Below are positions 3,249-32,000 of a stretch of 32,000 bases of DNA, one piece after another. The stretch is taken from contig CP042461.1 in the NCBI GenBank assembly GCA_004563595.2, positions 360,001 to 392,000 of the forward strand, in the 5' to 3' direction. Each line of letters begins with the position of its first letter. The first letter of the stretch is position 1. The position numbers and the translations under genes were made by a program. The notes under the pieces were generated by a model. It had not been told where the DNA came from and searched no databases. It saw nothing but the letters and a program-made list of their open reading frames with translations. Origin of the DNA: Candidatus Saccharimonadota bacterium. Its GTDB lineage: Bacteria > Patescibacteriota > Gracilibacteria > BD1-5 > UBA6164.

Positions 3249-4586
3249 ATGGGGATATCTGATGTGTTAAAATCAAATGCTCACAATAAAACCACTACTT
3301 CAAAAATAAGAGTAGGGGATTTATTTAGTATTTCAGATGATTCTAATAACGGTGATAACCTAGATTCTGATATGAATCTTAGATCACTCTGAGATAAAAA
3401 AGAAGATACAAGTCTGATTACATTTGTGAATGATATATTTTTAAATGCTTTTAAACAATGAGCCTCAGATATACACATTGAACCAAGAACAAGGTCAGTA
3501 AATATTAGATTTAGAATAGATGGAAATTTTATAGCTTATAAAACTCTTAATATAGCAAAAAAAGATTCCCTTATTGCGAGAATAAAAATTCTTTCATATT
3601 TAAGAATTGATGAGCATAGACTTCCACAGGATGGAAAAATAAATTATAAACTTTTTTGAGGAAAATCTATTGATATGAGAATCTCAATAATTCCTACTAT
3701 TTATGGAGAAAAATGCGTAATTAGAATTTTGAAAAAAGATGATACCCCACCTGAATTAAAGGACCTTTGAATTATGCCATATAATATGGTAAAAATTAAA
3801 AAACATCTCAAAGATTCGTACGGAATGATTCTAGCTGTTGGTCCTACTTGATCATGAAAAACGACTACTCTTTTTTCACTTTTGTCGCAGTTTAATGCAG
3901 AAGAACAAAATATTTCTACATTAGAAGACCCGGTTGAATATAGGATTCCATGAGTAAACCATACCCAAATTAACCCTGCTATTAGTTTTACATTTGCAAA
4001 GTGACTGAGGAGTTTACTGAGACAAGACCCCGATATTATAATGGTATGAGAAATTAGGGATGAAGAAACAGCAAAATTAGCTGTTGAGGCTTCTATTACA
4101 TGACATATTGTGTTTTCTACAATTCATACCAATTCAGCGACTCACACAATTCAGAGATTAGTAAACCTATGAGTTGATCCTCTCCTTATAAGTTCTTCAT
4201 TGAGGACTATTATATCCCAAAGGTTAGCAAGGAAGTTATGTAATGATTGTAAGCAGGCATATAATCCAAGTCCAAAAATAAGAGATTATATTGTATCAAA
4301 AGTTTGAAAATACTTAAAGAATAAAGAGGATCTTGTTTTATATAAGTCACCAGATAAATGATGCGATAAATGTAATCATACTTGATATAAATGAAGAGTT
4401 TGATTATATGAGGTACTAGAAATGACAGATCAGCTTGAATCACTTATGTTAAAAAATGCGAGTAGGTTACAGCTTGAAATTCAAGCCGTGTGAGATGGAA
4501 TGGTTCCTATCAAAGAAGATGGGCTTATGAAAGTAGTGATGTGAGAGACTTCAATAGAAGAAATCTTATCTGTCCTGGGGACTTAA
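3249..4586 (+). CDS. pilB: Type IV pilus / type II secretion assembly ATPase (PilB/GspE family), short form, 445 aa
   Basis: ATG 3249 to TAA 4584-4586, frame checked throughout. Contains GASDIHIEP, Walker A GPTGSGKTTTLFS (two TGA glycines), [15 protein letters not shown], and a tetracysteine motif CNDC...CDKCNHTGYKGRVGLYEVL. Confidence 0.9.
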
Positions 4587-5886: not shown

Positions 5887-5989
5887 AAAAAAACTTGTAA
5901 TAATATAAAATTTAATAGAATGGTATTTGTATTCTATAGTACGAATAAAAAAATAAGTTCAAATTTATTTTATAATCTTGACTTTACGA

Positions 5990-7074: not shown

Positions 7075-8625
7075 ATGATAGGAAATAAAAAAGCATTTAC
7101 TCTGGTTGAATTGATATGAGTAATGGTTGTCTTAGTGATCCTTTGAACAATAGCATTTATTAGCTTTCAAGGGTATGCAAAAACAGCAAGAGACTCTTGA
7201 AGAGTAACTGATGTAAATAGTATCACAAAATCACTTGAAGTTTATTATGTAAATAATTGAACCTATCCTACTCCTACTGGAGCAACACCTGTATCGTACT
7301 CATGAACAACAGTATGGACTCAAGGGACAGTCTGAGATGATGTAATAGAAGAGCTTTGATTATCATGACCTATTTTAGATCCATTACTTTGATCTGAGTA
7401 TGCATATTCAGTAACAAAATTGAATAAAGAATTTGAAGTATGAGCAGTGATGGAATGAAATTCGATAGCAAGCACTCAAATTACAAATGCAGTACATGCT
7501 GCGGGAACTAGATATACAGCATATATTAAATGAACCTATAATAAAAAAATAGCGAAAGCAGTTATGGGGAACACTACATATTTATTTGCTATTCCAAGTA
7601 TAATATCATCTGATTTATCAAATCCTGATATTATAGAAATAGCAGCAAATAAAGCATTGGTATACAGTGGATATAATAATCTTCCATCAAATATAGATAT
7701 TCCAAGTGTAGAAAATACATGAGGTTTTAATTTTGGTTGATCTGTAAACATTGTTATTTATGAATGAAGCTCTGATCCTTCATGACTTGATTCATCTGCA
7801 TTACAAACGTTTGCAGAAAACTTACAAAATGTATATGTTGCAAGTGACATAGCGAATGATCCATTATATGAAAATATTGTATCAATGAACACTTCAGATT
7901 CAACTGAAGTGAGTTCAAATATATGACCGATTATTAATAATATTTTATGAGGAAGTGTAGAGGTTTCAGAAGCTGCTATAAACTCATGTACGGTAGTAGG
8001 GGAGATCTTATCTTCAACAAGCTCATATGGATCTTGTAATACACCAGATATAATAGTTTGTTCAGGACCATGAAGTTCATATACAATTGCAGCATGTAAT
8101 GCATGAACACAAATTGGTTGAACATGAGCTACATCATACTGAGAATTATATCAATGGTGAAATAATGCAGCTCTAAAATTAGCTTGAGAAAGTTCTACAC
8201 AAATATGAGCAACTACAAGTGATAGTACTTATAGTAATACTACATTTATAAAACTTTCAGATGATTGGACATCTATTCAAAATGATAATTTATGGGGAAA
8301 TACTACGAATACAAATGTAGCGAGACAATGACCATGTGAAAATTGATACCATGTTCCAACTCAATTGGAATGGGAAAATATATACACAGTGTGATGATGG
8401 GGAACAGACGGAGATGCTATGTCAAATGCCTTAAAACTTCCTATGTCTGGTATTCGTGAAGCGACTACATGAAACATTTTTGGAGAAGGATTTCTTTCAG
8501 TTTACTGGGCTTCATCTATAAATGGCGTTTCATGAGCTTCTGCATGATTTACTTCTACTGCTATTAATCCAAGTTGATTGACTGCACGTGCTTTTTGATC
8601 TTCTGTGAGATGTTTTAAAAATTAG
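7075..8625 (+). CDS. Large type IV pilin with C-terminal FISUMP-type (Fibrobacter succinogenes major paralogous, TIGR02145-like) domain, 516 aa
   Basis: ATG 7075 to TAG 8623-8625, frame checked line by line. N-terminus MIGNKKAFTLVELIGVMVVLVILGTIAFISFQGY is a prepilin motif. The C-terminus carries FISUMP hallmarks: YGELYQWGNN, CENGYHVPTQLEWENI, LPMSGIR, SVYWASS, AFGSSVRCFKN. Confidence 0.85.
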
Positions 8626-14846: not shown

Positions 14847-14912
14847 TGCTTTAATGTTACATTAAGGTTTTAAGATACTATAATTTATAGTTTATATTCA
14901 TAAAAATATCAT

Positions 14913-16019
14913 TTGCCTACAAAAGTTAACACAAAAGCCCGTATTAATAGACATTTAAGAATTTTCAAAGACGATATATGAATTTCTAAGAAAAATAAAA
15001 AGACGAATCAATCATATACTTTTATACTTTTTGTAATTCTATTACTAACACCTATTTATCCTAGCTTTGCTTCATTTATTCATAATAATAATCAGTTTAA
15101 TTTTGATAGGGGAGATATAGATGAACAATCAATTATCTGATCATATTATTGAGACAATGAAGAAGAAGATGAAGATACGCCTATTTTGGAATCATCGGAT
15201 TCATTTCTATCAGTAAATACTATACTTGATGATGAGAGAGATCTATCATGAACAAATGAGATATTAGATTATGAAGTAAAGCCATGAGAATCATTTTATT
15301 CTATAGCTTATAAGTTTAAAGTTTCAACAAATTCAATTTATTGGGCAAATAATTTTTCTAAGAATCATACTCTTCAACCAGGTGATATATTAAAAATACC
15401 ACCAGTATCAGGATTAATTCATCAAGTTAAAAAATGAGAGACACTCTCAGCTATTGCTAAAAAATATGATGTAGATGAAGATAAGATAAAAAGTCAGAAC
15501 CTTCTTTCTATCTGAGAAACTCTACAAGCTTGAGAAGTTCTTGTGATTCCTGGAGCGATTAAAAAATCTCCAAAACCTATATACAAAAAACCAACGAGCT
15601 ATGCAAAAACATCAGCAAAATCATGATACAAATTTGCGCAAGCTGCGAAGAGTCAATATACAACTAATAAAGGTTCTTACAATTTGATATGGCACAAACC
15701 TCAATCATGAGCTGCTTGAAATTGTACGTGGTATGTAGCATCTTATAAAAAGGTAAATTGGAGATGAAACGCAAATAGATGGATGGCAAATGCGAGAGCA
15801 AAATGACATGCAACTTGAAGTGCACCAAAAGTTTGAGCAATCGTACAGTTTACAGGGAGATGATACAATCCAAGATATGGTCATGTGGCTATTGTAATGG
15901 ACTTAAAGGATGATTATATGATAGTAAGTGATATGAACTACAGAAGGTTATACGAAGTGACTTACCGTAAAGTACCAGTAAATGATAGATCAATAGATTG
16001 ATATATTTATATAGACTAA
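14913..16019 (+). CDS. Secreted peptidoglycan hydrolase: 2x LysM + C-terminal CHAP/NlpC-P60-type amidase/peptidase, 368 aa
   Basis: The frame opens after TAA 14901 and there is no in-frame ATG near the 5' end, so TTG 14913 is the proposed start. TM/signal FILFVILLLTPIYPSFA. LysM 1: YEVKPGESFYSIAYKFKVSTNSIYWANNF...LQPGDILKIP. LysM 2: HQVKKGETLSAIAKKYDVDEDKIKSQN...LQAGEVLVIP. CHAP-like: GNCTWYVASY...GAIVQF...YGHVAIVM. TAA 16017-16019. Confidence 0.85.
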
Positions 16020-16166: not shown

Positions 16167-19100
16167 ATGAAGAACACTGTAAACAAATATCTCATTTGAG
16201 CAATTTTACTCTTGAGTTTCACTTTTACATCTGTTAATGCAGAGTGTAATGAATGAGTAGACGGTTGTCTATCTGGTTGGAACCATACATCAAATACTGG
16301 TTCTATTTGGAATAATTGGACATGGTTTAATCCAATGTCAGAATTTGGATGAGTTGGTTTTATGATAAATGAAGATAATCCACTTTGGAGTGGTCCTGCA
16401 TTTAATTGGGCAAATGGATGAAGAATTAGGTCTTTTAGTAAAGGAGCGAATGATGGAGCAGCTGTTACAGCTGCGATAGATCCAGATAATAGAGCACCAA
16501 CTACTACGGTGTGAAGTTCTTTTAAAGTAGTTGATCTACCAGAATCCACAAGTAATGGTGCATCTTGGTGGATGTGGTATGATAGAATATGAATGGCCGC
16601 GAGAGGTCTTACCAATGCAAATACTGATAGAATGAGTTTTTATATAAAAACTGAGGATATGGAACCTCTATCAACACCAACGGGGATTAATATATGGGGA
16701 TATCATGTGGGGACATATTTATGTTGGGATGAAGGGTGTAATGGTGGATGAAGTGGATGAGAAGGTCCAGGGAATCAACATTATTATCACTATCTTGGAC
16801 TGAATCCATGAGCATGGATTCATGTAGAGTTAGATCAACATCCACAACATAGAAGGGATTGAAGCGGACCTGTTTTAGGGAACAATCCATCGTTTATAGA
16901 ATCAGGGAAGAATTATTTTGAAAATATGTCTCGTTTTTACATGGAGATTAGGTCAGCTCAAACTGACACAACTACGATGCATATTGATGAAATGGAGTAT
17001 TATTCGACTCAAGACAGTGTAGAACCAAATCAAAATGATGAATCAGTTACTTCTGTTTGGGTAGGGAATTGGAGAGCAGATGATTATTGGGAGATAGGTT
17101 TTGCTGATAATTCGTTTGGTGAGGATAGTATGAATTGAGACACTTGGTCTACTTTTGAAATAAAGTGGTCAACAAGTCCGATTACAAATGCAAACTATGA
17201 TTCAGCAACACTTATAGAACCAATGTTTTACACAGGAGACCAATATACAGATAAGGGCGTATGAGCAATTCGTAGATCTGATTCTTGGGAAAGAGGAGTA
17301 TGGACACGTTTTGAATTACCAGATTCAGTTGAAATAGAGTGAAATAAATTGTATTTTGCTATAAAAGATATATCTATTATATGAACATGAGCTGGTAATG
17401 ATTACCCTTGGAATAAAAATGATCTTTATACTGCACCAACTGATAATATTAGAATTATTGATTATGTTGTAGGTCCAATTGTTGTTAACCCACTTGAGAT
17501 GACAACAACAGAAGTACCAACAGCAATTTTAAATTCATCATATTCAGAACAAATAAGTATTAAATGATGAGTAGCACCACACATATTTTCAACAACATCA
17601 TCACTTCCAGCAGGTGTAACTCTCTCAAATGCAGGTCTTCTTTCAGGAACACCAACTGAGTTAGGGATATTTAATATTGAAGTAATAGTTGATGACTCTA
17701 ATAGTCCATCAACTCAAATTACAAAGAGTTTTACACTGATGGTGAACCCACCGGAAGTATGTAATGATGGAATAGATAATGATGGAAATGGGAAGATAGA
17801 CTGTGCAGATTATGCCTGTACAGATTGATGTAGTCAATTACTGGTAGACTTTTGAAATAGTGCAATAAATGATACCTTTAGTATTTCAGGTTGGAATACA
17901 GTTTTTAAAGATACTTATACTGGTTATTATAACCAATGAATGACGAATACAGCTGGAACGAATAAAGATTATAACTATCAATGAGTTTCTGGTTCATCAA
18001 TGGAATTTGCAGAATGAGATAGAGTTTTACTCACATGGTATAATAATACGAGTTCTCAGATTACATTTACTCCAAGAATAAGTTTTGATGACAATGATAG
18101 ACCTGTTTCAGGAGTTGCAGGAACATGGTACTCAACAACTCAGTGAGTAATAGAAGCTTGATCATATGGTGTAACAGAGTATGAAGTAACATCAGCAAGT
18201 GCAGGAAATTACACACTTGTAAATACAAATGTGAATTATGAACATAATACAGAACTAATCTTAGATAAGATATCGCTTATTGATGCATGAGCGACTGGAG
18301 GGTGAACAGGGACAGGGGCAACAGATATAACAGCTCCAGTATTATCAAATGGATTTCCAAGTGGAGAACAAATATCAGGAACAACAAATACAACATTAAG
18401 TATATCTACCGATGAGAATGCCTTTTGTAAATATTCAACTGTTGTAAATACAACATATGGATCAATGATAAATAGTTTTTCTACAACATGAGCTCAATCA
18501 CATACAGTAAGTGTATGAGGACTTACAGATGGTGTATCGTATACATATTATGTAAGATGTATTGATGGAGATTCAAATGAAAATACAAATGATTACATCA
18601 TTAGCTTTTCAGTATCGGAAGCTTGAACCCCTACAACTTCTACAGGATTGATACATAATTATCAATTTGATGAAAACACTTGAACGGTTCTTTGAGATGG
18701 TTTTGGTGGACAATGAACTATATCAAATGGTTCTTGGAAAACTGGTCTTATAAATTCTGCAGTAGATTTTGATAATACAACTATTTCATTATGAAATATG
18801 GATGTAACATGAAATGGACTTACTATTTCAGCTTGGGTAAATCCAGATACTTTTGCAATTCATGATGCAAGAATCATTTCAAAAACATCAAGCCCATCTG
18901 AAGCTGACCATTATTGGATGATGAGTACACAAGGTGAAAGTGGAAGATATTATCCTCGTTTTCGTTTAAAATCTGATCAAGAAACAGTAACACTTGTATG
19001 ATATAATGTAGAACTTCAAGCATGAATATGGCAACAGATTACTGTGACATACGATCAGGCAACAATGAAGATCTATGTAAACGGTGTTGAAGCTGGATCA

Positions 19101-22100
19101 TCAACAGCTGCAAACTGACCAGTTGCAACAAATGCTACCATAGAAGCTACCATTTGAGCGAATCCAGATGGATCACGTAATTTTGATGGATCAATTGATG
19201 AATTAAAGATATATGATGAAGCTCTGAGTGCAGTAGATGTACTCACTGATTATAATGATGATATAGCTACTTCATGATATACTCCAGGTACAGGAGGTGG
19301 AAGTGGAGGTACAGGAACGGGAGGTACAGGAGGAGGATGAACAATAGAGTGACCAAATAATCCACTTGCTTGAATTTCAGATCTTAAATATACAGGAGCC
19401 TTTATTATTCCTACATGAACATATGGTGTAGCAGGTACTCCATATTCTGAGGGAAAAATTGCATATAATCCTGATAACCATTCTTTGTTTCTTTCTACAG
19501 TAGATTCAAATAACCCTGATACAGATTTTACTGTTCCAGATTCAGTGTTATGAGAATTTTCTATTCCAAATATCAGTATGAGTGAAGATAGGCTTGACCT
19601 GAGTCCAGCTGTAAATATTCAAGGATTTATTGATTTGTATGATGATGCACCAGCATCAAGTTTAGAGCGTATTTCATGAATGTATTATAAAAATGGTGAA
19701 CTATTTGTAAATGGTTTAGTCTTTTATGATGCAAGTGCAAATGGAACAGATACTTCACTTGTTATTCGTGATGCAAATGCAATGGGATCTTCTCAAATTG
19801 ATGGTATCTTTAAAATGGAGTGAGCCGCAAGAGCGGCATGATGGATTTCTGATATCCCATCTGACTGGCAAACTCCATTTGGAGCGACACAAATATCAGG
19901 GAATGCAAGTAATTTAGCGATTGATAGTCGTAATAGTATGGGGCCAAGTGCTTTTACCTTTGATATAGATACTATCATTGGAAATAACTCTCCAGCTACT
20001 ACGATAGCAACTACTACTATCATGAATTACCCATTAAATGAGTATGGTGCAGAGAGTCATGCTATGTATCCTCAAGATAAATTTCCAAACCTTACTCCAA
20101 ATCAATGGATAGGATGGGAATGAGATAATTATGAAAGTGTAGATTATAATAACATAGATTGGGATAATGATGGTACTTTTGATCATGATAATGATCTATG
20201 GACTTCAAATTCTCATGCTGATTATGGATTTATAATTCCATGAACAAATACCTATGCTGTTTTCTGATCTACAGGAGGTGCAGAAAGTGGTATATGATAT
20301 AAAGTAAAAGAAGAAGATAGAATAAATGTTACACCTGGGAGTTGAAACTGTGCATGACCATGTACTTTTGATGGGAATGATACAAGTAATTTCTATTGGT
20401 TCTTTGATGTAGATGATATGATAGCTGTAAAGAGTGGTGTTATGCAAGCTCATGAAGTAAGACCATATAGTTATTGAGAAATGGTGGTTCCATTTGAAAG
20501 AAGAAATGGTTCACTTCATACGATAAAGTGAGGGAGTTATGATGCTACAACACAAACTTTATATTTATCACTTTCTAAGTATTTAGATCCAAATCCACCT
20601 ACTATTGTTACCTACAATGTTGACCTTTCAAACAATGAAAATAATACAGGAACTGGAACAACTACAGGAACAGGAACATCGGATACAACATCTCCATTTC
20701 TTTCAAATGGGACTCCGAGTGGAGAACAGGTATCAGGAACAACAAATGTAACTTTGAGTGTTTCAACAAATGAAAATGCATTTTGTAAATATTCAACAAC
20801 TTCAAACATAGCATATGGATCAATGACAAACAGTTTTTCTACTACATGAGGTCAGTCACATACTATAAGTGTATGAGGATTCACAGATGGTAATTCATAT
20901 AGATACTATGTAAGATGTATTGATTGATCACTCAATGAAAATGCTTCAGATTATGTAATTAATTTTTCAATAGCAGAACCTTCAAGTGCTGCTGTTCCAC
21001 CGGAAAATAATGTCTGCTTACCTTTAGCAGCCCCGAGTCAAAGTGATACAATCATTAATGTAGTGCCATCTCAAGCTCTTCAATTAAGAGATATTATAAT
21101 GTGAGCACAATCTGACACTACTATCTATCTTGCTGATGGAACATATAATGTGGGAAGTAATTTCCGTTTAGAGTTTACTAATCCAAGAGTTACTGTGAGG
21201 TCTCTTTCTTGAAATAGAGATGCGGTAATTGTTGATGGATGATATAATCAATCATGAGCTGCTGAGATATTTTATGTAAATATTCCAAATATTACTATTG
21301 CGGATATTACGATTCAAAAAGCTTATTATCATCCTATTCATGTAACTTGAAATGGTGATAATGCAAACATATATAATGTAAAAATTATAGATGGTGCGGA
21401 ACAATTTATCAAGATTAACCCTGAAGGAACGAATTACCCAGATAATGGGAGAATTAGTTGTTCATATTTTGAATTGACTGATGCATGAAGTACTCATACA
21501 AGGAATGGATGTTATACTGGGGGAATAGATGCTCACTCTGCACAATGATGGTTTGTTAAAAACAATACTTTTAAAGATATCTATTGTCGTGATAATAGTG
21601 GTATAGCTGAACACGCCGTTCACTTTTGGTCACAAAGTAGAGATACTCATGTTGAATGAAACCTCATGATAAATAATGCTCGTGGTATATGATTTGGTCT
21701 CTGAGCAACTCCTACTACTTGAATAAGGTATTATGCTGATCAACCATTACTTGGAACTTCTTTAACAGAAGCTGATGTACAACATATTGGTTGAGTTATT
21801 CAAAATAATATAGTTTATTGAGATAATTGATCATACTTTGATACTGGTATTTGAGTAGAAAAAGCTCATAATCCAAAAATTTATAATAATACTGTATATA
21901 CAAATAATAATGGGAGTCTTCCACTAGATGCACGTTTTACATCAACAACAGCAGAATTTATAAATAATATTTATTATCCAAATTATTTTTCTATACGTGA
22001 TGGTGCAACGGTAAATGCTTCAAATAATATAAGTGTGTGATCTACGGCCTTTGTAGATATTGCAAACCTTGATTTTAATCTTGTTACAGCTTCAGCCCCA

Positions 22101-25100
22101 ATTAACGCTGGTATTGATGTTGGTATTTCAAACGATTTCATTGGGTTCATAAGAGATGCACAACCAGATATTTGAGCTTTAGAATTTAATTCAGGTGGAG
22201 GATGATGAGATATTACAGCTCCAGTATTATCAAACTGAGCTCCAAGTTGAGAACAATCATCAGGAACAACGAATACAATATTAAGTATATCAACAGATGA
22301 GAACGCATTCTGTAAATATTCTACAACTGCAAATACGACATATGGATCAATGATAAATATATTTGCAACAACATGATTACAATGACATAGTGTGAGTATA
22401 TGAGGACTTTCAGATGGAGTATCATATGACTACTATGTTAGGTGTATAGATTGAAGTGGGAACGAAAATACTTCTGATTATACGATTAGTTTTTCAGTAG
22501 CATCTGGCATTCCAAGTTCAGACCCTACTACAAATCCACTTGCACATATAGGAGACTTTGAATACGTATGATGATTTACTTTTGGTTCAACATCATGAGT
22601 ATCAGACCTAAGTTATACCTCAGGGAAATTTGCTGTAAATCCTGCTTCAAATTCGGTTTTCATAGCCAGTCATACAAATCAAGATGCCTTATGAGAATTT
22701 AGTATTCCTGCGTTATCACTTGATTCAGATTATAATAATCTAAACAATGCAACACAAATACAGGACTTTGATTATGTACGTAATAGAGTATTAAATCCTG
22801 AAGCGCATGACGAATTATGATGAATGGCTGTAATTGGCAATAGTTTGTTATTTCATAGCTATACATATTACGATGCAGGTGGAACTAATGTTTGAACAAC
22901 ATCAGTAGTAAAAAATCTATCAGATCTAAAAAATTCTGTAATAGATGGAATATTTCCACTTGCATGAAGGGCTCATTTAATAAGTTGGGCATCATTGATA
23001 CCAACAGAATGGCAAACACTATTATGATGAGATTATATATCATGATCATCAAGCTCAATACCTATTAATTCGAGATCTAGTATGTGACCAAGTGCGTTTG
23101 CATTTCAATCAGATGATCTTTTGAATGCAACCGATACAAATGTAACTATACCGACTACTAAATTATTAGATTTTGGTTTAAGTAATGTATTAGCAAAGAC
23201 ACCTTCAGGGTGGGCAGAATATTGAGACTGGGATCTATATAATGCAAATGGAGATAATGATTTATGGACGGAAGATTCTTGAGCAGAATATGGATTTATA
23301 ATTCCATGAACCAGAACCTATGCAACGATCTGAATGTCATGAATGCATGAAAGTGGAGGATGATACAAGATTACTCAATCAGGTGCAACAGAAGCATGTT
23401 GATGACCATGTGCCTATGATCCACTTGATATGTATAACTATATATGGTTATGGGATGTAAATGATTTCTTAGATGTAAAAAATGGATTAAAACAATCATA
23501 CGAAGTAAAACCATACCAATATGGAAAATTTAATACTCCATTTGAATATAGACTCAATGGAACAAGAAAAAACTTAATTGCTGGTTGATCATATGATGAT
23601 GTATCAAACACATTGTATTTGAATTTAAACAGAGCAGATGGAGAGAATCATGCTGCTTGACCAGTAATCCTTGCCTACAAGATAAATGCGGTAGTAGATA
23701 CTACAGCAGCTATACTTTCAAACGGAACTCCAACTGGAGAACAAGCCTGAGGAACAACGAATGTAAATCTGGCACTTGATACTGATGAGAATGCAACATG
23801 TAAATATTCTACCGTTGCAAATACAGTATTCACAAGTATGACAAATACATTTACTACGACGTGAAATACATCACATTCTACAAATGTAACATGATTAACA
23901 GATGGGAATTCATATACATATTATGTAAGATGTATAGATGGGTATTTGAATGAAAACACAATAGATTACACACTCAATTTTTCAGTAGCGAACACTCCAG
24001 ACACAACAGCACCGATTCTTTCGAACGGAACCCCAAGTGGAGAACAAGCCTCAGGAACAAGTAACGTGAATCTGATACTCGATACCGATGAAAATGCAAC
24101 ATGTAGATACTCTCCAAATGCAAACACATCATATTGAGCAATGTGAAATACATTTACAACCACAGGGAATACAACACATACTACAAAAATTACATGACTG
24201 ACAGACGGAACATCACATACGTATTATGTAAGATGTATGGATGGAAATTCTAATGCAACAATAACAGATTACACACTGAACTTCTCTGTAGCGAATACTC
24301 CAGACACATGAGCACCATTTTTAAGTAATGGACTTCCAAATGGAGAACAAGCTTCAGGAACAACAAATGTAAATCTAACATTAGATACGAATGAAGCATC
24401 AACATGTAAATACTCAACAGTAGTAAATACAACGTATTCATCAATGACAGATATATTTACAACAGGAACCTGAGGAATCACACATACAGCAAATATAACA
24501 TGACTTACAGATGGAACATCACACGCATACTATGTAAGATGTATGGACACTGATTCAAATGAAAATACAATAGACTATACAATTAACTTTTCAGTAGCCA
24601 CAGCAAGTACAAATAGCTGATGAAGTTCATCAGGCTGAAGTTCAAGCTGAGGTTGAGGAGGTTGATGATGAGGATGAGGAAGTTATATCCCAACCTGTAA
24701 AGACGAACAACTCACATGTAAACTGATTCCATGATCGACAACGACTTACAAATGGTATGTACAAGACGAAGTATCATGTAAATATGGGAAACTATGAAGT
24801 CTCTGTTGAGAAGAAGATGTAGTAGAGTTGAATAGTGGATGAACATGAACATGAAGTAGTACAGACAGTACATGATGATGAACATTGAAGAAATACCATT
24901 CAGAAATGACAATCCTTCAATTGATAGAGAAGAGAGTGGACAAAGTAATCGAACAAAAGAAGAAAGATAATGATGACAAAGTAATAGAATACAGAAATGC
25001 TTTTATCAAAGACGTAGAGAATTATATATTAGCCAGACAAGCGAAACAAAGTACAAGAGAACACAAAGTGAAGATACTCGCAACGTTCAAACTCTTTGCA

Positions 25101-25409
25101 AAAGAGTTGAAGAAAGATAGGCTTGCTAAAACAAGTGAAAAGAAGAAATCTACCATAAAGAAATACATAGCTGTACACGAGGCAGTGTATACGCTTTGAG
25201 ATAGACTTGATAGCTTGATAATAAAGTACAATAAGGAGTCGAGTATAAAAGTGTTGTTTTTTAAGAATAAGTTGTTAAAAAGTATGGATTCATACATCAC
25301 AACAAAGAAGAACAAAGAAAAAGGGATAAATTACAAGATTAAATTAAAGATATTAAAAAGTAATATCGGAAAAACTTACAAAATATTCTTGAAAGGATTA
25401 AAGTCTTAA
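16167..25409 (+). CDS. Giant mosaic secreted surface protein, 3,080 aa
   Basis: I read every codon from ATG 16167 to TAA 25407-25409. There is no TAA/TAG in frame, and many TGA codons fall at Gly-like positions. Signal peptide MKNTVNKYLIGAILLLSFTFTSVNA. Domain order by eye: N-terminal ~430-aa domain; He_PIG-like Ig (LPAGVTLSNAGLLSGTPTELGIFNIEV); CNDGIDNDGNGKIDCADYAC motif; ~160-aa CBM-like domain; module R1; LamG/ConA-like domain (...NFDGSIDELKIYDEALSA); Gly linker; ~420-aa unknown domain A; R2; ~400-aa right-handed beta-helix-like domain; R3; domain A' (paralog of A); R4-R5-R6; Gly/Ser linker; small 4-Cys domain; ~175-aa Lys-rich tail. Confidence 0.85.
18330..18614 (+). repeat. 95-aa two-Cys beta-sandwich-like module, copy R1 (type A)
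   Basis: TAPVLSNGFPSGEQISGTTNTTLSISTDENAFCKYSTVVNTTYGSMINSFSTTGAQSHTVSVGGLTDGVSYTYYVRCIDGDSNENTNDYIISFSV. Confidence 0.85.
20688..20972 (+). repeat. 95-aa module, copy R2 (type A)
   Basis: TSPFLSNGTPSGEQVSGTTNVTLSVSTNENAFCKYSTTSNIAYGSMTNSFSTTGGQSHTISVGGFTDGNSYRYYVRCIDGSLNENASDYVINFSI. Same length and register as R1. Confidence 0.85.
22215..22499 (+). repeat. 95-aa module, copy R3 (type A)
   Basis: TAPVLSNGAPSGEQSSGTTNTILSISTDENAFCKYSTTANTTYGSMINIFATTGLQGHSVSIGGLSDGVSYDYYVRCIDGSGNENTSDYTISFSV. Long stretches are identical to R1 at the nucleotide level. Confidence 0.85.
23703..24596 (+). repeat. Tandem array of three modules (R4-R6, type B), exact 303-nt period
   Basis: Module starts are at 23703, 24006 and 24309. 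Each reads (T/G)A(A/P)xLSNGxPxGEQAxGTxNVNLxLDTxEx(A/S)TC(K/R)YS...TGLTDG(N/T)S(Y/H)xYYVRCxD...DYT(L/I)NFSV, joined by ANTPD(T) linkers. Confidence 0.9.
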
Positions 25410-27474: not shown

Positions 27475-27510
27475 AAAAAATAAAAATACACCCTGTATTT
27501 TTATTTTTTA
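27475..27510 (+). terminator. Rho-independent terminator after htpG
   Basis: aaaaaataaaaataca ccc tgtatttttatttttt. Confidence 0.65.
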
Positions 27511-27588: not shown

Positions 27589-28914
27589 ATGAGAAAGCAA
27601 AATATAAATGGGCTTACATTTGTAGAGTTAATTGTTGTTATGGTAGTTGTGGCTATACTTTGAACAATGTGAATAGTTACATTTCAGTGATATTCGAAAG
27701 ATACAAGAGATACTGCTAGAGTAAGTGACTTAGAGCAAATTGATCAAGGTTTAGAGCTATATTTTGCAACTGAGTGAGATGTACCACTTCCAGAAAATAG
27801 TATAGAGATTACAGCTACTGGGAAAATAGTACAGTACCAATGAGATATACCAGATATTACTCTCTCCCTTATTTGATTTCAATGAAAAGGAGTAGATCCC
27901 AAAGATTGAACTCATTATGTATATACATCAGATGGGAAAAATTTTCAATTAATGTGACTTCTTGAGCAGGATAATTGAAATACGGCTATTTGAAAAAGGT
28001 ATCCTTTTTTTAAAGGATGAAAGCTAGGAATATTTATTGACAATACTACAGGTGAATCAATCCATGAAATATGAACAGGTATTGATTTAATTAGTACTAG
28101 TACAGTGTATAAGGTTTATGATAGTAATAATAAAAATGATTATTTTACTTGATCATCAGATACCTTATCAAGAAAGTTATCATATAGAATCAATGGAACT
28201 GCAAACTGTAAGGAAATATTAGAAAAGTGAGTAACAACTTTAGATGGAACATACACTACTGCTATAAGAGATGATGTCCCCATATCCGAGGTATACTGTG
28301 ATATGACTACTGATTGAGGTTGATGGACAGCTGTTGTAATGCTTGCAGATAACACGACTGTAAATATGTTTAAAACATGAACATCATGACTGGTCCCCTC
28401 TGTTACAGAAGATATATCGACTACTTGAGACCTAGGTTACTTTTGGGTTGATGATGAAAATAAAGATATATTGATGCGTTGATGGTCAAGTATGGGGGAG
28501 ATTGAAGACATATACAATTCTTGATCAGTGATTTATAATTTCATGAAAAGAGATTTAGAAAATTTAACACAACAGAAAAAACAAAATGATGCAACAGGGA
28601 AAGGAGAGAGATTTTCCAGCATTCCACTTACTCTGAAGTATATCAATAATTGACAGGAATTCCAAAGTTATACATACTGGTGAGAATCTGCATGAAGTAA
28701 AAATTCACATTATATTATGATTTCTGAACACGTATATTTTATAGATTTGTTTAAATGAAATGGCTACAATAACTGATGTCATAATGATGCTGAAACAGGA
28801 ACGGGGACAGTGTCATCAGATTTCTATGATTATATACAAACAGGACCTAGTCTAAATGAGCCATGTGCTTTGTATTTTAACTCACAAAACTACATGGTCG
28901 TATTCTTAAGATAA
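27589..28914 (+). CDS. Type IV pilin fused to a fibrinogen-related (FReD-like) globular domain, 441 aa
   Basis: ATG 27589 to TAA 28912-28914, every line checked in frame. The N-terminus MRKQNINGLTFVELIVVMVVVAILGTMGIVTFQGY is a prepilin motif. From about aa 205 the sequence reads NCKEILEKGVTTLDGTYTTAIRDDVPISEVYCDMTTDGGGWTAVVML, the hallmark CxEIxxxG...G.Y.I...VYCDMxTDGGGWT motif of fibrinogen C-terminal domains. Two of the three GGG glycines are TGA. Confidence 0.8.
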
Positions 28915-28943: not shown

Positions 28944-31900
28944 ATGTATAAAAAAAATAAAACACTTATAAAAAAAATATTTACTCTCTGACTTATTTTT
29001 TGATCAACTCTCTCAATAGTAGATGCAAGCATGATAGCAGATTATGATAATGGCTGGATAGAAAATGCGGCTGAAAGTCGTCTTGAAGACTCTTCAAGTA
29101 CAGTTTGGACTACTCTAGATACTGGTCATGGTAATCAGAATATGAGCATAGATCCTTCAGGGTGAGTGAGTTGAGCTGCAGCTAAAGTTGATGTAGTTAG
29201 TTACTGAAGTGATGGTCTATTTAAGATATATTTTGCCTATGATGAAGATAGATATACTACGCTAGATGCACCAGATGGGACAAACAGAATGGTCTTATAT
29301 ACTACTATTCCATACTCAGGTGATGGAAATGAACACACGTTTCATATTGGTACCTATTCTAAAGACCCTGCAACGGCAGCTTCGACATCAAATGTAGGGA
29401 ATCACTGGTATCATTACTATGAGTTAAGAGGGAATGATAAAAATTATTGGACGAAAATGTATATGGATACACGTCCTCAGCATGTGGTAGGTGATTCCGA
29501 AAATGCGCCAGAAACGAACCCTACAGCCACTGACGGGTTTAACTACTTTGATGGACTTACAAGGTTATATATACAGATGAGATATTCTCCGTTTGAATCT
29601 AACTGGCCCGGACCGTATACTATGTTTGTAGATGAAATAGAATTTTATGATGAAACAAGAGTAGAAAATGATTATAGTATCAACAGTGTTGCTATAACTT
29701 ATTTTGGTTCTTGAGAATTTGATATAGATTGGAGTTCATTTAGTCCATATGATATTCATAGTGAGACTTTTGAAGTAAGATATTCGCTAAACCCAATAGA
29801 CACAATAGATGACTATTTAGCCTCATCAATTGTACCCGGAAGTCCAGCATGAGGACGGGGGCAAGAAAATATAGGCCATCATGACAATCATTATAGAGCA
29901 AATTTTCAAATTTCTGGTATTGATGAAACAAAGAAGTATTATTTTGCAATTAGAGATTTATATGCGTCTCATCCACAAGATTTAAAAAGAGTTGATTATG
30001 AAGTATTGAATGCTCCAGCACCCATGTATTTAGGTTTCTCATCAAGTAATTTGCTCAACGGTGAAAAAGATTTGTTTTACGCATTTCAACTTGAATGAAA
30101 ATGAGGAAAATCACCATATACATATTCCACTACATCTCAACTTCCTGCATGACTCATGCTTACAAGTGGGTGACTTATATCAGGTATACCTACAGAGTGA
30201 GGAACTTTTAATTTAGATATTACTATCCAAGATTCAGATTCTCCACAGACAAGTGTCCAAAAAACTTTTGTTCTTTATATTAGCGTACCAGAAATTTGTA
30301 CCGATGGAATTGATAATGATGGAAATTGATCAATAGATTGTAATGATCCAATCTGTGTTGGAAATGCTGCATGTGAAGGTTCTGGAGGAGTGTCACTTAT
30401 TAATTTTGGTGATAGTGCAGCAAATAACGTTTTTGGTTTAAGTGGTTGGGATACTGTATTTTTAGATAATTATACAGGCTATTATAATCAATGATCAACC
30501 ATTGTGACAGGTAATAATTCGAATTACAATTACCAAGGGCTGAGTGGTACCTCAAGAACTTTTATAGAAGATGATAAGGTTTTTGCTACTTGGTATAATG
30601 ATGGTCTTTCAAGTATGACCTTTACTCCGTTGGTAAGTTTTACAGACCCTGATAGAAAATGATCAGGAGCTATTCCTACGGGATGGTATGAAATGTCTGA
30701 AGTGACAATTCCTGCTCAGAATTATGGAATTTCAGAGTTTGTTTTTGATACTTCAAATATTTGAGACTATAGTCTTGTAAATGTGAATGTAAATGAGGAT
30801 AATAGTAGCATATTGCTTCTTGATCAAATTTGACTTATTCCAACAGGATCAGTACCAACAGATACAACTGCTCCAGTATTATCAAATGGAGTTCCAAGTT
30901 GAGTCCTTTGATCAGGGACAACAAACACAACGCTCAGTATATCTACAAATGAGAACGCATTTTGTAAATATTCTACAACTGCAAGCACAGTATATGGATC
31001 AATGATAAATACATTTGCTACGACATGATCACAGTCGCATAGTATGAGTATATGAGGACTTATTGATGGAACATCATATACATACTATGTAAAATGTATT
31101 GATTGAGATTCTAATGAAAATACATCAGACTATATAATAAATTTTTCAGTGGCTAATGCTTGAGACATTATAGCTCCTGTACTATCAAATGGAACTCCTA
31201 TAGGAGAACAGGTATGAGGAACAATAAATGTAATTTTAGGGGTTGATACGGATGAAAATTCGACTTGTAAATACTCAACAGTAGTAAATACAGCGTATCC
31301 ATCAATGACAGATACATTTACAACCACATGAAATACAAATCATACAACAAATATTACATGACTTACAGATGGAGCATCATATACATATTATGTAAAATGT
31401 ATAGATGGATCAAGTAATGAAAATATATCAGATTATATAATTAATTTTTCAGTAGCGAATGCTTGAGATACCACAGCTCCTGTGCTATCAAATGGAGCCC
31501 CAGTTTGAGTTCAATCTTCTGGAACAACAAACGTGAATGTGGCATTGACTACGGATGAAAATGCAACATGTAAATATTCAACAGTAGTAAATACAACGTA
31601 TGCATCAATGACAGATACATTTACTACGACATCAAATATAGCTCATAGCACAAATATTACATGACTTACAGATGGAGCATCATATACATATTATGTAAGA
31701 TGTATAGATGGATTAAGTAATGAAAATACATCAGATTATGCTATTAGTTTTTCAGTAGCAATTGAATCTTCAGGTTCGTACTCTGCTATGCTTTCAACAT
31801 TTGAAGTATGATGAAATGAAATATATACATGACCAAGTGCTGATCAAGTAACACGTGTACAAGACAATTATAAATGGATTCCATATCAGTGAGGAAGTTC

Positions 31901-32000
31901 ATATGCACCTACACGGGGATATCTTGAAATAGATGATACAACTGGTGCGAAGTGAAGTAGTGGAAGTTTGAAATATGTTTCAACATGAGGAAGATCTAAT
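28944..32000 (+). CDS. Second giant mosaic surface protein, paralog of 16167-25409 (3' end outside the window; >1,018 aa)
   Basis: ATG 28944 lies 30 nt after the pilin stop with no terminator between. The frame was checked to 32000 with no TAA/TAG. Signal MYKKNKTLIKKIFTLGLIFGSTLSIVDA. The N-terminal architecture matches giant 1: N-domain (HIGTY...HWYHYYEL...MFVDEIEFYDE), He_PIG-like Ig (LPAGLMLTSGGLISGIPTEGGTFNLDI), CTDGIDNDGNGSIDCNDPIC, a CBM-like domain, then three 95-aa modules. Confidence 0.85.
30867..31757 (+). repeat. Tandem array of three 95-aa modules in giant 2 (one type A then two type B), exact 303-nt period
   Basis: Module starts are at 30867, 31170 and 31473. The first copy (TAPVLSNGVPSGVLGSGTTNTTLSISTNENAFCKYSTTASTVYGSMINTFATTG...) is close to R1/R3 of giant 1. 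Copies 2 and 3 resemble R4-R6. Confidence 0.9.

What the first reader, a model, noticed from the sequence alone, without database searches (positions are those of the whole stretch)
27589..28914. Type IV pilin with a fibrinogen-related (FReD-like) C-terminal domain
The protein starts with a canonical prepilin leader and hydrophobic helix (GLTFVELIVVMVVVAIL). After a ~170-aa pilin-like body it contains NCKEILEKGVTTLDGTYTTAIRDDVPISEVYCDMTTDGGGWTAVVML. This closely matches the signature opening of animal fibrinogen, ficolin and angiopoietin C-terminal domains (C-x-E-I...G-x-Y...VYCDM-x-T-DGGGWT). FReDs are carbohydrate and acetyl-group lectins and are very rare in bacteria. Placing one on a pilin would put a lectin on the pilus, which is an obvious device for grabbing another cell. 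The distal third of the domain does not show the canonical FReD P-subdomain motifs, so it may be a divergent or truncated version.
Basis: partly seen in the sequence, partly recalled or inferred. Interest (0 to 1): 0.8.

Follow-up and report, generated by a model that had tools for sequence, protein, structure and literature searches.

The report
Modular pilin carrying a fibrinogen-like domain
This gene from an uncultured Gracilibacterium (which reads TGA as glycine) encodes a type IV pilin fused to a highly diverged fibrinogen/intelectin-like domain, probably a pilus-borne adhesin; both the architecture and the bacterial domain family are already catalogued but have never been studied experimentally.

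Summary
Under genetic code 25, 27589-28914 (+) is an intact 441-aa ORF (NCBI hypothetical protein A9Q91_01915, Gracilibacteria bacterium 28_42_T64). It has a prepilin leader and an FReD-type motif, C207...YCDMTTDGGGWT247.

- **Pilin:** this is solid. The family profile hits only type IV filament subunits.
- **FReD-like domain, motif:** the first ~47 aa are clearly homologous to the FReD A subdomain. Pfam PF00147 scores above its threshold but covers only positions 4-49 of 221. NCBIfam NF040941 'GGGWT_bact' matches in full.
- **FReD-like domain, remainder:** the other ~190 aa show no sequence similarity to FReDs. A confident AF2 model (pLDDT 85) matches only FReD-superfamily structures. Intelectins are best (TM 0.45-0.50) and ficolins score 0.33-0.43.
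- **Binding site:** the canonical Ca2+/acetyl-binding P-subdomain motifs are absent in all 26 family members, so ficolin-like specificity cannot be inferred.
- **Rarity:** the domain is not rare in prokaryotes. At least 313 loci were found in species-representative genomes.
- **Prior record:** the pilin+fibrinogen architecture is already listed in Raynaud et al. 2021 (8 proteins).

Most likely it is a tip-displayed adhesin module on retractile type IV pili of an episymbiont or predator, with unknown ligand. It is a new member of a known kind, of moderate interest.

The parts
27589..28914 (+). Complete gene (441 codons plus TAA; 27 in-frame TGA = Gly) for a modular type IV pilin with a C-terminal FReD-superfamily domain. 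It is identical to NCBI hypothetical protein A9Q91_01915.
27589..27612 (+). Prepilin leader peptide MRKQNING (aa 1-8). Cleavage by the prepilin peptidase is predicted after G8.
   Evidence: Sequence read directly. Homologs have ...G|FT[LF]VE. The cleavage itself is inferred.
27613..28173 (+). Pilin module (aa 9-195). It comprises the hydrophobic alpha1-N LTFVELIVVMVVVAILGTMGIVTFQ with Glu at +5, a long alpha1 helix (modelled aa 11-62), and a beta-sheet head.
   Evidence: PF07963 scores 21.3 bits against GA 21.2 for the module alone, and 20 of 22 family members match. The profile hits only type IV pilins and pseudopilins in the PDB. AF2 pLDDT is about 70-87 over aa 40-190. The module is 36% identical over 150 aa to the pilin module of the neighbouring modular pilin.
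28174..28911 (+). C-terminal FReD-superfamily (GGGWT-headed) domain, aa 196-441.
   Evidence: AF2 with a 26-sequence alignment gives pLDDT 85.4 and pTM 0.87. All top 50 Foldseek PDB hits are FReD or intelectin structures. The significant viral hits are all phage fibrinogen-/collagen-NC1-type or uncharacterized proteins, one of them annotated tail-fibre-like.
28204..28344 (+). FReD A-subdomain signature (aa 206-252): C207...G-x-Y...V-Y-C237-D-M-T-T-D-G-G-G-W-T, with the conserved Cys207-Cys237 pair.
   Evidence: PF00147 positions 4-49 of 221. NF040941 matched in full. hhalign probability is 98.4 to a sponge FIBCD1-like protein over 52 columns. The Cys pair is conserved in 25/26 and 26/26 sequences.
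28714..28884 (+). Most variable stretch of the domain (aa 376-432). It sits at the topological position of the FReD P subdomain and contains a Cys pair unique to this protein (C397, C426). It is a candidate ligand-contact region.
   Evidence: Identity to the close orthologs falls from about 0.9 (aa 196-300) to 0.33-0.5 here, and family identity is 0.10-0.25. The ligand-contact role is inferred.
28888..28911 (+). Conserved C-terminal beta-strand NYMVVFLR (family consensus NYCxxAIR).
   Evidence: N434, Y435 and R441 are conserved. The column of M436 is Cys in 22 of 26 members and covaries perfectly with Cys at the column of G298. The strand is modelled at C-domain residues 239-245.
3249..4586 (+). 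PilB/GspE-type assembly ATPase (445 aa), part of the machinery that would polymerise this pilin. Context, 23 kb upstream.
   Evidence: PF00437 T2SSE at E 8e-122.
7075..8625 (+). Paralogous modular pilin (516 aa). It has the same type of pilin module with a different, FISUMP-like C-terminal module. Context.

Best explanation
The gene encodes a modular type IV pilin.

Shown: it has an N-terminal class III signal peptide and a pilin module (aa 1-195) of the same kind as other large GspG-like pilins of this genome. This is fused to a 246-aa domain. The first ~47 residues of that domain are homologous to the A subdomain of fibrinogen-related domains. Its predicted fold belongs to the FReD/intelectin superfamily, but it lacks the canonical Ca2+/acetyl-binding P-subdomain motifs.

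Inferred mechanism:
1. The prepilin peptidase PilD removes MRKQNING.
2. The hydrophobic alpha1-N inserts the protein into a type IV filament assembled by the PilB-type ATPase.
3. The 27-kDa extra domain cannot pack along the filament shaft, so the subunit sits at the tip (or is sparse and surface-exposed). This is as modelled for Streptococcus sanguinis PilB.
4. The FReD-like module binds a surface component of another cell, most plausibly a glycan or other envelope polymer, through its variable distal region.
5. PilT-driven retraction then pulls the tiny Gracilibacterium onto its host or prey.

The protein is one of about 15 paralogous large pilins in this genome that share a carrier module and differ in their effector modules.
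For: - **Gene and code:**
- **Pilin identity:** G-1/E+5 leader. The family profile hits only type IV filament subunits, with Geobacter PilA-N at 3.7e-11 through GspG at 9e-4. PF07963 is found in 20 of 22 members. The AF2 model shows an alpha1 helix plus a beta head.
- **Machinery:** a PilB-type ATPase lies in the window. Sieber et al. 2019 (PMC6851277) report for this 1.34-Mb genome 15 GspG-like proteins averaging 528 aa, GspE, PilB/C, two PilT and PilD, and no PilQ.
- **Modular design:** the pilin at 7075-8625 has a paralogous pilin module (E 3e-27) and an unrelated C-terminal module. The concept, and tip placement of bulky modules, come from Raynaud et al. 2021 (PMC8179133). Their dataset lists IPR012902-IPR002181.
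- **FReD-like module, sequence:**
- **FReD-like module, structure:** AF2 pLDDT 85.4. Foldseek hits are exclusively FReD superfamily, with XEEL at E 2e-6 and TM 0.49/0.45.
- **Strand packing:** perfectly covarying Cys at the columns of aa 298 and 436 (22 C/C, 4 neither) supports packing of the C-terminal strand against the central sheet, as in FReDs.
- **Cell-surface recognition role:** the same fold occurs in cyanophage proteins, one of them annotated tail-fibre-like. GGGWT domains occur in tandem arrays in giant secreted proteins. The most variable region lies where the FReD ligand-binding P subdomain would be.
- **Biology:** type IV pili are expressed in Gracilibacteria and are essential for host adhesion in a cultured Saccharibacterium (PMC11452946). 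They are proposed to mediate host attachment in Vampirococcus (PMC8080830).
Against: - No experiment exists on any member of this family.
- Incorporation into a filament, tip location and ligand binding are all inferred.
- Beyond ~47-60 residues there is no sequence-detectable similarity to any FReD, including a canonical bacterial one.
- The structural match is only TM 0.33-0.50 with rmsd 8-10 A.
- The known FReD binding-site motifs are absent, so a lectin activity is not supported by conserved residues.
- The full-length model was poor, and its pilin part gave no significant structural hit.
- The gene is not in a pilus operon, either here or in homolog contexts.
- High variability in aa 376-432 could simply reflect weak constraint.
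Confidence: 0.6

Rival explanations
1. It is a pseudopilin or membrane-anchored surface protein rather than a subunit of a long adhesive pilus. The pilin-type signal merely targets and anchors the protein, or places it in a short T2SS/competence-like pseudopilus. The C-terminal module would then act at the cell surface, for example to capture nutrients, polymers or DNA-associated material, rather than to bind host cells at a distance.
For: The closest named families for the pilin module are GspG/PulG-type pseudopilins. One homolog is labelled PulG by its source. Sieber et al. annotate the 15 large paralogs as GspG and note competence genes. The organism has no outer membrane or PilQ. The gene lies outside any pilus operon.
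Against: The genome has PilB, PilC and two PilT retraction ATPases, which are features of true retractile T4P. Bulky modular pilins have been shown to be pilus-displayed adhesins in S. sanguinis. T4P mediate host adhesion in a cultured CPR bacterium.
Confidence: 0.2
2. The C-terminal domain is a mosaic. Only the ~47-aa A-subdomain cassette is FReD-derived, and the remaining ~190 aa are an unrelated fold. On this view the Foldseek similarity is driven mainly by the N-terminal cassette and generic beta structure.
For: All sequence and profile comparisons stop at ~45-60 residues. TM-scores are at or below the usual 0.5 same-fold threshold, with rmsd 8-12 A. The NCBIfam model covers only 46 positions. 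The modelled distal part has more regular strands and helices than the loop-rich canonical P subdomain (the comparison rests on my own knowledge of FReD structures).
Against: All 50 top PDB hits and all significant viral hits belong to one superfamily, and their alignments span roughly the full length (270-305 columns for a 246-aa query). In giant proteins the motif recurs every 200-266 aa, so it always heads a full-size domain. One protein, P0049, combines a canonical FReD with divergent GGGWT domains ending in the same hydrophobic-x-R strand. The C-terminal strand pairs with the central sheet, as in FReDs, as judged by Cys covariation.
Confidence: 0.15
3. It is a classical ficolin/tachylectin-type lectin. 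It would bind acetyl groups or carbohydrates through a Ca2+-dependent pocket equivalent to the FReD S1 site.
For: There is FReD superfamily membership at the motif and fold level. FIBCD1, ficolins and intelectins, which are all lectins, are among the best sequence and structure hits. A conserved FS[ST] (23 of 26) lies at roughly the position of the FST that precedes the Ca2+ site in canonical FReDs.
Against: D-x-D-[ND]-D, N-C-A...W-W-Y and N-L-N-G are absent from the target and from all 26 family members. The P-equivalent region is the least conserved part. Pfam and profile matches never reach the P subdomain.
Confidence: 0.1

Closest known systems
Modular type IV pilins: Streptococcus sanguinis PilB (pilin + vWA) and PilC (pilin + ConA-like lectin); Raynaud et al. 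2021 PNAS, PMC8179133
   Same: An N-terminal IPR012902-type pilin module is fused through a short linker to a bulky, independently folding binding module. The expected mode of action is the same: tip display and adhesion. The exact architecture IPR012902-IPR002181 is listed in their Dataset S1 with 8 proteins.
   Different: The effector module is FReD-like rather than vWA or ConA-like. The organism is a code-25 CPR bacterium. There are no structural or functional data. The pilin module is larger (~190 aa) and GspG-like.
NCBIfam NF040941 'GGGWT_bact', fibrinogen-like YCDxxxxGGGW domain-containing proteins
   Same: The target matches the whole 46-position model at 49.9 bits against a cutoff of 30. 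The family is widespread in bacteria.
   Different: The model covers only the motif. Most members are giant multi-domain secreted proteins from standard-code bacteria, not pilins. The pilin-fused subfamily, with its own conserved FS[ST] and NYCxxAIR features, has not been described separately.
Intelectins / X-type lectins (XEEL 4WMO, human intelectin-1 4WMQ, lamprey LSVL 7E1E)
   Same: These are the best profile-sequence hits (XEEL 2e-10) and the best structural hits (TM 0.43-0.50). Like the target, they share only the FReD N-terminal segment at the sequence level and diverge in the remainder.
   Different: Intelectins are ~280-aa chordate proteins with Ca2+-dependent binding of exocyclic diols (own knowledge). 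Whether the target has the equivalent Ca2+/ligand residues could not be determined. Identity is 13-17%.
Classical FReDs (PF00147): ficolins, FIBCD1, tachylectin-5A, fibrinogen beta/gamma C, angiopoietins, tenascins
   Same: The A-subdomain signature with its disulfide is shared. Overall fold family is shared by Foldseek. A C-terminal strand ending in a basic residue returns to the central sheet (comparison from own knowledge).
   Different: There is no match to PF00147 positions 50-221. The Ca2+ site and the P-subdomain disulfide are absent. TM is only 0.33-0.45.
Phage FReD-type proteins (Pseudomonas phage PaBG S5VVF2; cyanophage P-SSM4, S-ShM2, S-CAM8; 'tail fiber-like' protein of metaG-MbCM1)
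   Same: They show the same predicted fold family (E 2e-5 to 3e-3, TMq up to 0.54). They provide a prokaryote-world precedent for this fold on proteins that recognise bacterial surfaces.
   Different: They are carried on virion proteins rather than pilins. They are predicted structures only, and their functions are untested.

Membership tests
Type IV pilin / type IV filament subunit | Class III signal peptide: short basic leader ending in Gly(-1), a hydrophobic ~20-aa alpha1-N, and Glu at +5 | tested here: met
   The sequence reads MRKQNING|LTFVELIVVMVVVAIL, with E13 at +5. Leu replaces the usual Phe at +1. Homologs have G|FT[LF]VE.
Type IV pilin / type IV filament subunit | Match to curated N-methylation-motif models (PF07963 / TIGR02532) | tested here: inconclusive
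   The full-length protein scores 19.9 bits on PF07963, below GA 21.2. TIGR02532 scores 14.9 against 16.3. The N-module alone scores 21.3 against 21.2, and 20 of 22 family members match. The target is borderline; the family is clearly positive.
Type IV pilin / type IV filament subunit | Long N-terminal alpha1 helix packed on a beta-sheet head, with homology to solved pilins | tested here: met
   The family profile hits only pilins and pseudopilins in the PDB, 21 of 21 hits, over alpha1. AF2 places H11-62 and then beta strands with pLDDT about 70-87. Foldseek with the low-confidence full-length model gave no significant hit.
Type IV pilin / type IV filament subunit | Cognate machinery present (assembly ATPase, platform protein, prepilin peptidase) | tested here: met
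   A T2SSE ATPase lies at 3249-4586. PilC, PilD and two PilT are reported for this genome by Sieber et al. 2019. They are not within the window.
Type IV pilin / type IV filament subunit | Processing by the prepilin peptidase and incorporation into a filament | not testable with these tools
   This needs biochemistry or EM.
Modular pilin (Raynaud et al. 2021) | [quoted passage not shown] | tested here: met
   Domain boundaries are shown. The paralog at 7075-8625 has the same carrier and a different module. The architecture IPR012902-IPR002181 is listed in their dataset.
NCBIfam NF040941 GGGWT_bact | Score above the curated cutoff over the full model | tested here: met
   49.9 bits against 30, model positions 1-46 of 46.
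Fibrinogen-related domain (PF00147 / IPR002181) | A-subdomain signature C...G-x-Y...[VF]-Y-C-D-M-x-T-x-G-G-G-W-T with the Cys-Cys pair | tested here: met
Fibrinogen-related domain (PF00147 / IPR002181) | Profile similarity across the B and P subdomains (PF00147 positions ~50-221) | tested here: not met
   Only positions 4-49 of 221 match. The family profile against the PDB stops at profile position ~70. hhalign aligns only 45-52 columns, even to a canonical bacterial FReD.
Fibrinogen-related domain (PF00147 / IPR002181) | Three-dimensional FReD fold | tested here: inconclusive
   The AF2 model has pLDDT 85.4. All top hits are FReD superfamily at probability ~1.0, but TM is 0.33-0.50 and rmsd 8-12 A. 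No coordinates were available for a strand-by-strand check.
Fibrinogen-related domain (PF00147 / IPR002181) | P-subdomain Ca2+ site (D-x-D-x-D), adjacent disulfide (N-C-A...C) and aromatic ligand pocket | tested here: not met
   The regex search found none of these motifs in the target or in any of the 26 family members. They are present in the bacterial canonical FReD of P0049.
Intelectin / X-type lectin | FReD-like N-terminal segment followed by a divergent intelectin-specific body with Ca2+-coordinated glycan site | tested here: inconclusive
   Intelectins are the best sequence-profile hits and the best fold hits. Sequence similarity ends after the N-terminal segment, TM is at most 0.50, and the Ca2+/ligand residues could not be mapped without coordinates.

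The most novel reading that the evidence does not exclude
The pilin-FReD-like family is a lineage-wide host/prey-recognition device of the code-25 CPR bacteria (Gracilibacteria and probably Absconditabacteria). Its hypervariable P-equivalent region (aa 376-432) would set host range. More broadly, the GGGWT-headed FReD/intelectin fold would be an ancient prokaryotic cell-surface-recognition module. It is shared by predatory bacteria, episymbionts, DPANN archaea and phage proteins annotated tail-fibre-like. Animals would then have acquired their fibrinogen/ficolin/intelectin domains from it, rather than the reverse.
Probability: 0.15. Interest if true: 0.75.

Novelty: new member of a known kind. 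Interest (0 to 1): 0.38.

Why it matters
How ultrasmall CPR bacteria find and hold their hosts is largely unknown. [quoted passage not shown] A pilin with a predicted binding module is therefore a concrete, testable candidate for a host-recognition determinant in Gracilibacteria, which remain uncultured.

The recombinant domain (246 aa, once the TGA codons are recoded) could be used as a probe to fish for the unknown host or ligand.

The finding also corrects a common assumption. FReD-type domains are not essentially animal-specific. A large and barely studied prokaryotic radiation exists, and it appears frequently in lineages whose lifestyle depends on cell-cell contact. That bears on the origin of the animal fibrinogen/ficolin/intelectin lectins.

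None of this is conceptually new, however. Modular pilins, the bacterial GGGWT domain and even this architecture are already on record.

Tried and rejected
1. **Standard-code reading (pseudogene or non-coding):** rejected. All 27 stops are TGA and the whole window is recoded.
2. **TGA = Trp (code 4):** rejected, on the evidence of Walker A, the HtpG motifs and DGGGWT. Many database homologs are mistranslated this way.
3. **AF2 of the full-length protein with 16 sequences:** the C-domain was unusable (pLDDT 35-55). Foldseek with that model gave nothing significant. I redid the C-domain alone with a 26-sequence alignment.
4. **Extending sequence homology beyond the motif:** I tried a family profile against the PDB, hhalign to an animal FReD, hhalign to a canonical bacterial FReD, and hhalign to a divergent domain of the same protein. 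All stop at 45-60 residues.
5. **Operon logic with the downstream giant protein (30-nt gap):** rejected as obligate. It is not syntenic in the ortholog locus, whereas htpG upstream is. A more distant homolog sits among housekeeping genes.
6. **Promoter/terminator scan:** uninformative in 30% GC DNA. It found 8 promoter-like sites against 13.7 expected and no terminators, because its rule requires GC pairs.
7. **Literature searches:** I searched for 'YCDxxxxGGGW', for FReD + pilin, for bacterial intelectin homologs and for Bdellovibrio fibre + fibrinogen. None returned a characterised bacterial example.
8. **Convergence as the origin of the motif:** rejected, given 42-50% identity over 45-52 columns plus the fold-family match.
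Full report
**1. Observation**

In the standard code the stretch 27589-28914 (+) is broken by 27 stops. Every one of them is TGA, and the terminal stop is TAA. Reading TGA as sense yields one 441-aa ORF. It also converts the whole 30.6% GC window from 15 short ORFs into a dense set of long genes.

I masked TGA as X in neighbouring housekeeping genes. The masked positions fall on invariant glycines of textbook motifs:
- Walker A, GPTXSXKTT, in the PilB-type ATPase
- DNGIXMT and IXQFXVGFYS in HtpG

In the target itself D-TGA-G-TGA-W-T becomes the universal DGGGWT. The protein is identical to NCBI 'hypothetical protein A9Q91_01915' of Candidatus Gracilibacteria bacterium 28_42_T64, on a 1,343,103-bp contig. 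This corresponds to the closed 1.34-Mb genome described by Sieber et al. 2019 (PMC6851277).

**2. The pilin half**

The protein begins MRKQNING|LTFVELIVVMVVVAIL..., with Gly at -1 and Glu at +5.

Curated motif models are borderline for the target alone:
- PF07963 scores 19.9 bits for the full-length protein, against a gathering score of 21.2.
- PF07963 scores 21.3 bits for the N-module alone.
- TIGR02532 scores 14.9 against 16.3.

The family result is clear. 20 of 22 family members match PF07963. A profile of the N-terminal ~200 aa hits only type IV filament subunits in the PDB, 21 of 21 hits. These include Geobacter PilA-N at 3.7e-11, PpdD, PilA, PilE1, MshA and GspG, and all hits are over alpha1. 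The AF2 model shows a long alpha1 helix (aa 11-62) followed by a beta head, with pLDDT about 70-87. That model was too poor overall to give significant Foldseek hits.

The window also holds:
- a PilB/GspE-type ATPase at 3249-4586, T2SSE E 8e-122
- a small pilin at 5886-5329 (-)
- a 516-aa pilin at 7075-8625

The pilin module of the 516-aa protein is 36% identical to the target's over 150 aa (E 3e-27). Its C-terminal module is different and FISUMP-like. Sieber et al. report 15 GspG-like proteins averaging 528 aa, plus GspE, PilB/C, two PilT and PilD, and no PilQ in this genome.

This is the 'carrier module plus exchangeable effector module' design defined as modular pilins by Raynaud et al. 2021.

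**3. The C-terminal half, at the sequence level**

Residues 206-252 match Pfam Fibrinogen_C above its gathering score (25.9 against 22 bits), but only over profile positions 4-49 of 221. NCBIfam has a curated bacterial model of exactly this motif: NF040941 'GGGWT_bact', fibrinogen-like YCDxxxxGGGW domain. The target matches it end to end at 49.9 bits against a cutoff of 30. phmmer against PDB sequences finds ficolins, intelectins, tenascins, angiopoietins and fibrinogen beta, with a best E of 1.9e-6.

An exhaustive search with aa 196-441 found 658 representative clusters.
- About 25-40 are pilin-sized proteins (400-470 aa) that align over most of the domain.
- Almost all of these are Trp-rich and Gly-poor, meaning code-25 genes called with code 4. 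Even the Gly at -1 is read as Trp.

A 26-sequence alignment of the domain (A2) shows:
- invariant C237, D238, W246 and T247
- further invariant F261, W286, L326 and Y435
- a conserved FS[ST] in 23 of 26
- a conserved C-terminal strand, NY[C/M/I]xxAIR

I could not extend homology to FReDs past ~45-60 residues:
- The A2 profile against the PDB matches only profile positions ~8-70. Intelectins are now on top, with XEEL at 2e-10.
- hhalign aligns 52 columns to a sponge FIBCD1-like protein, at probability 98.4.
- hhalign aligns 45 columns to a canonical FReD found in a signal-peptide-bearing, bacterial-type protein, P0049.
- hhalign aligns 47 columns to a divergent domain of that same protein.

The canonical P-subdomain hallmarks are D-x-D-[ND]-D, N-C-A...W-W-Y and N-L-N-G. 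They are absent from the target and from all 26 relatives. They are present in P0049's first domain.

**4. The C-terminal half, at the structure level**

With alignment A2, AF2 gives a confident model: mean pLDDT 85.4 and pTM 0.87. Foldseek against the PDB returns 79 hits at E <= 1e-3, and all of the top 50 are FReD-superfamily structures.

| Structure | TM-score |
|---|---|
| XEEL 4WMO | 0.49 / 0.45 (E 2.2e-6) |
| Lamprey LSVL | 0.49 / 0.44 |
| Human intelectin-1 | 0.48 / 0.43 |
| FGL1, ficolins, tenascin, angiopoietin-like, fibrinogen beta | 0.31-0.45 |

These alignments span ~270-305 columns. Against viral predicted structures, the only significant hits are phage fibrinogen-/collagen-NC1-type or uncharacterized proteins. 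One is annotated tail-fibre-like, and TMq reaches 0.54.

Two further observations support a whole-domain relationship rather than a grafted 47-aa cassette:
- In giant proteins the motif recurs every 200-266 aa, with a median of 244. It therefore always heads a full-size domain.
- The alignment column of G298, in the strand DILMxC, is Cys in 22 of 26 members. So is the column of M436, in the C-terminal strand NYC. Both are non-Cys in the other four. This perfect covariation indicates a disulfide tying the last strand to the central sheet, which is the FReD arrangement. The target's subclade lost that pair. The target alone has a different pair, C397/C426, in the variable region.

TM-scores at or below 0.5 and rmsd of 8-12 A still mean the fold assignment is probable rather than proven.

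**5. Distribution and prior knowledge**

They occur in:
- Myxococcota
- Bdellovibrio and Bacteriovoracaceae
- Bradymonadia
- Pseudoalteromonas
- Bacteroidota
- several CPR lineages (Gracili-, Peregrini-, Peri- and Nealsonbacteria)
- DPANN archaea

The premise that FReDs are 'very rare in bacteria' is therefore wrong for this motif family. Only another Gracilibacteria MAG matched beyond the motif (aa 39-189 of the domain, 40% identity). The pilin-fused subfamily thus looks specific to the recoded lineages. Other pilin+PF00147 combinations also exist in normal-composition sequences.

Raynaud et al. 2021 already list the architecture IPR012902-IPR002181 (8 proteins) and IPR012902-IPR013545-IPR002181 (2 proteins) in their Dataset S1, without discussing it. 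That IPR002181 is the fibrinogen C-terminal globular domain is from my own knowledge. I found no paper characterising any bacterial member.

**6. Context**

- htpG lies directly upstream, both here and next to the 69%-identical ortholog.
- A perfect 15-bp all-AT hairpin at 27475-27509 follows htpG.
- The downstream giant secreted protein starts 30 nt after the pilin's stop. It is not syntenic in the ortholog.
- A more distant homolog sits among housekeeping genes.

The gene is therefore a stand-alone pilin gene and not part of a pilus operon. This is common for accessory pilins (own knowledge).

**7. Mechanism**

Shown: a pilin carrier fused to a FReD-superfamily module, paralogous carriers bearing other modules, and T4P machinery in the genome.

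Inferred:
1. PilD cleaves after G8.
2. The PilB ATPase polymerises the subunit.
3. The 27-kDa module forces a tip or exposed location, by analogy with S. sanguinis PilB.
4. The module binds an envelope component of another cell.
5. PilT retraction draws the cells together.

The setting fits published work:
- Gracilibacteria express T4P (PMC11452946).
- T4P are essential for host adhesion in a cultured Saccharibacterium (Xie et al. 2022, as cited).
- Vampirococcus is proposed to use retractile T4P for host attachment (PMC8080830).

The ligand is unknown. The region at the topological position of the FReD ligand-binding P subdomain (aa 376-432) is the most variable part. Identity to close orthologs there is 0.33-0.5, against ~0.9 in aa 196-300. 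This is compatible with a diversifying recognition surface, but also with weak constraint.

**8. Verdict**

- Pilin: yes.
- FReD-related: yes for the A subdomain, and probably at fold level, closest to intelectins.
- Ficolin-like lectin chemistry: unsupported.
- Rarity: wrong.
- Architecture: already catalogued.

It is a new, uncharacterised member of a known kind, the modular pilins, carrying a member of a curated but unstudied bacterial domain family. It is of moderate interest, chiefly as a tractable candidate host-recognition determinant for an uncultured episymbiont lineage.

Noticed in passing
window 7075-8625 (+): This is a second modular pilin (516 aa). Its pilin module is paralogous to the target's (36% identity over 150 aa, E 3e-27). 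Its C-terminal module is Cys-rich and FISUMP-like (PF09603 at 17.8 bits and TIGR02145 at 15.7 bits, both below cutoff). The pilin+IPR011871 architecture is among the top 15 in Raynaud et al. 2021.
   Followed up: partly
window 16167-25409 (+) and 28944-32000+ (+): These are two paralogous giant secreted proteins, one of 3080 aa and one of at least 1019 aa that runs off the window. They share an N-terminal region. Both carry many ~95-aa Fn3-like repeats (TAPVLSNG...CKYST...YYVRCID..NEN). The first also has a Laminin_G_3/ConA-like lectin domain (aa 871-1025) and a Lys-rich C-terminal tail. The second starts 30 nt after the pilin's stop but is not syntenic in the ortholog locus L081.
   Followed up: partly
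window 27475-27509: A perfect 15-bp inverted repeat made only of A/T (AAAAAATAAAAATAC-ACCCT-GTATTTTTATTTTTT) lies just after the htpG stop. It is probably an intrinsic terminator in this 30% GC genome. The consensus scan cannot see it because it requires at least 3 G-C pairs.
   Followed up: partly
loci L003-L080; BFVD hits: GGGWT-headed FReD-like domains appear concentrated in lineages that live by cell-cell contact. These include predators (Myxococcota, Bdellovibrio, Bacteriovoracaceae, Bradymonadia), episymbionts (CPR bacteria, DPANN archaea) and cyanophage proteins, one of them annotated tail-fibre-like. I did not test this for statistical enrichment or sampling bias.
   Followed up: no
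proteins P0002-P0178: Most public homologs of this pilin family are code-25 genes translated with code 4. Glycines encoded by TGA appear as Trp (W 3-9%, G 0.3-6%). This includes the Gly at -1 of the prepilin cleavage site ('WFTLVE') and glycines in 'DGGGWT'. The error hides pilin motifs and degrades profile searches and annotations for these lineages.
   Followed up: partly
protein P0049 (936 aa): This single signal-peptide-bearing, bacterial-type protein combines one canonical, complete FReD with three divergent GGGWT-headed domains. The canonical domain has FSTIDLDNDIHNSNCSAF...WYVNCWNGNING and matches PF00147 over positions 2-186 of 221. It may serve as an evolutionary intermediate linking classical FReDs with the divergent bacterial domains. 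Several relatives also give weak COLFI (fibrillar collagen C-propeptide) matches over the same motif.
   Followed up: partly
window 5957-6946 (+) and 14904-16019 (+): Two further predicted surface proteins lie near the pilus genes. One is a 318-aa Fn3 + Big_5 protein with a C-terminal transmembrane anchor. The other is a 372-aa ORF that I did not analyse. Together with the pilins and the giant proteins, much of this window appears devoted to cell-surface functions.
   Followed up: no
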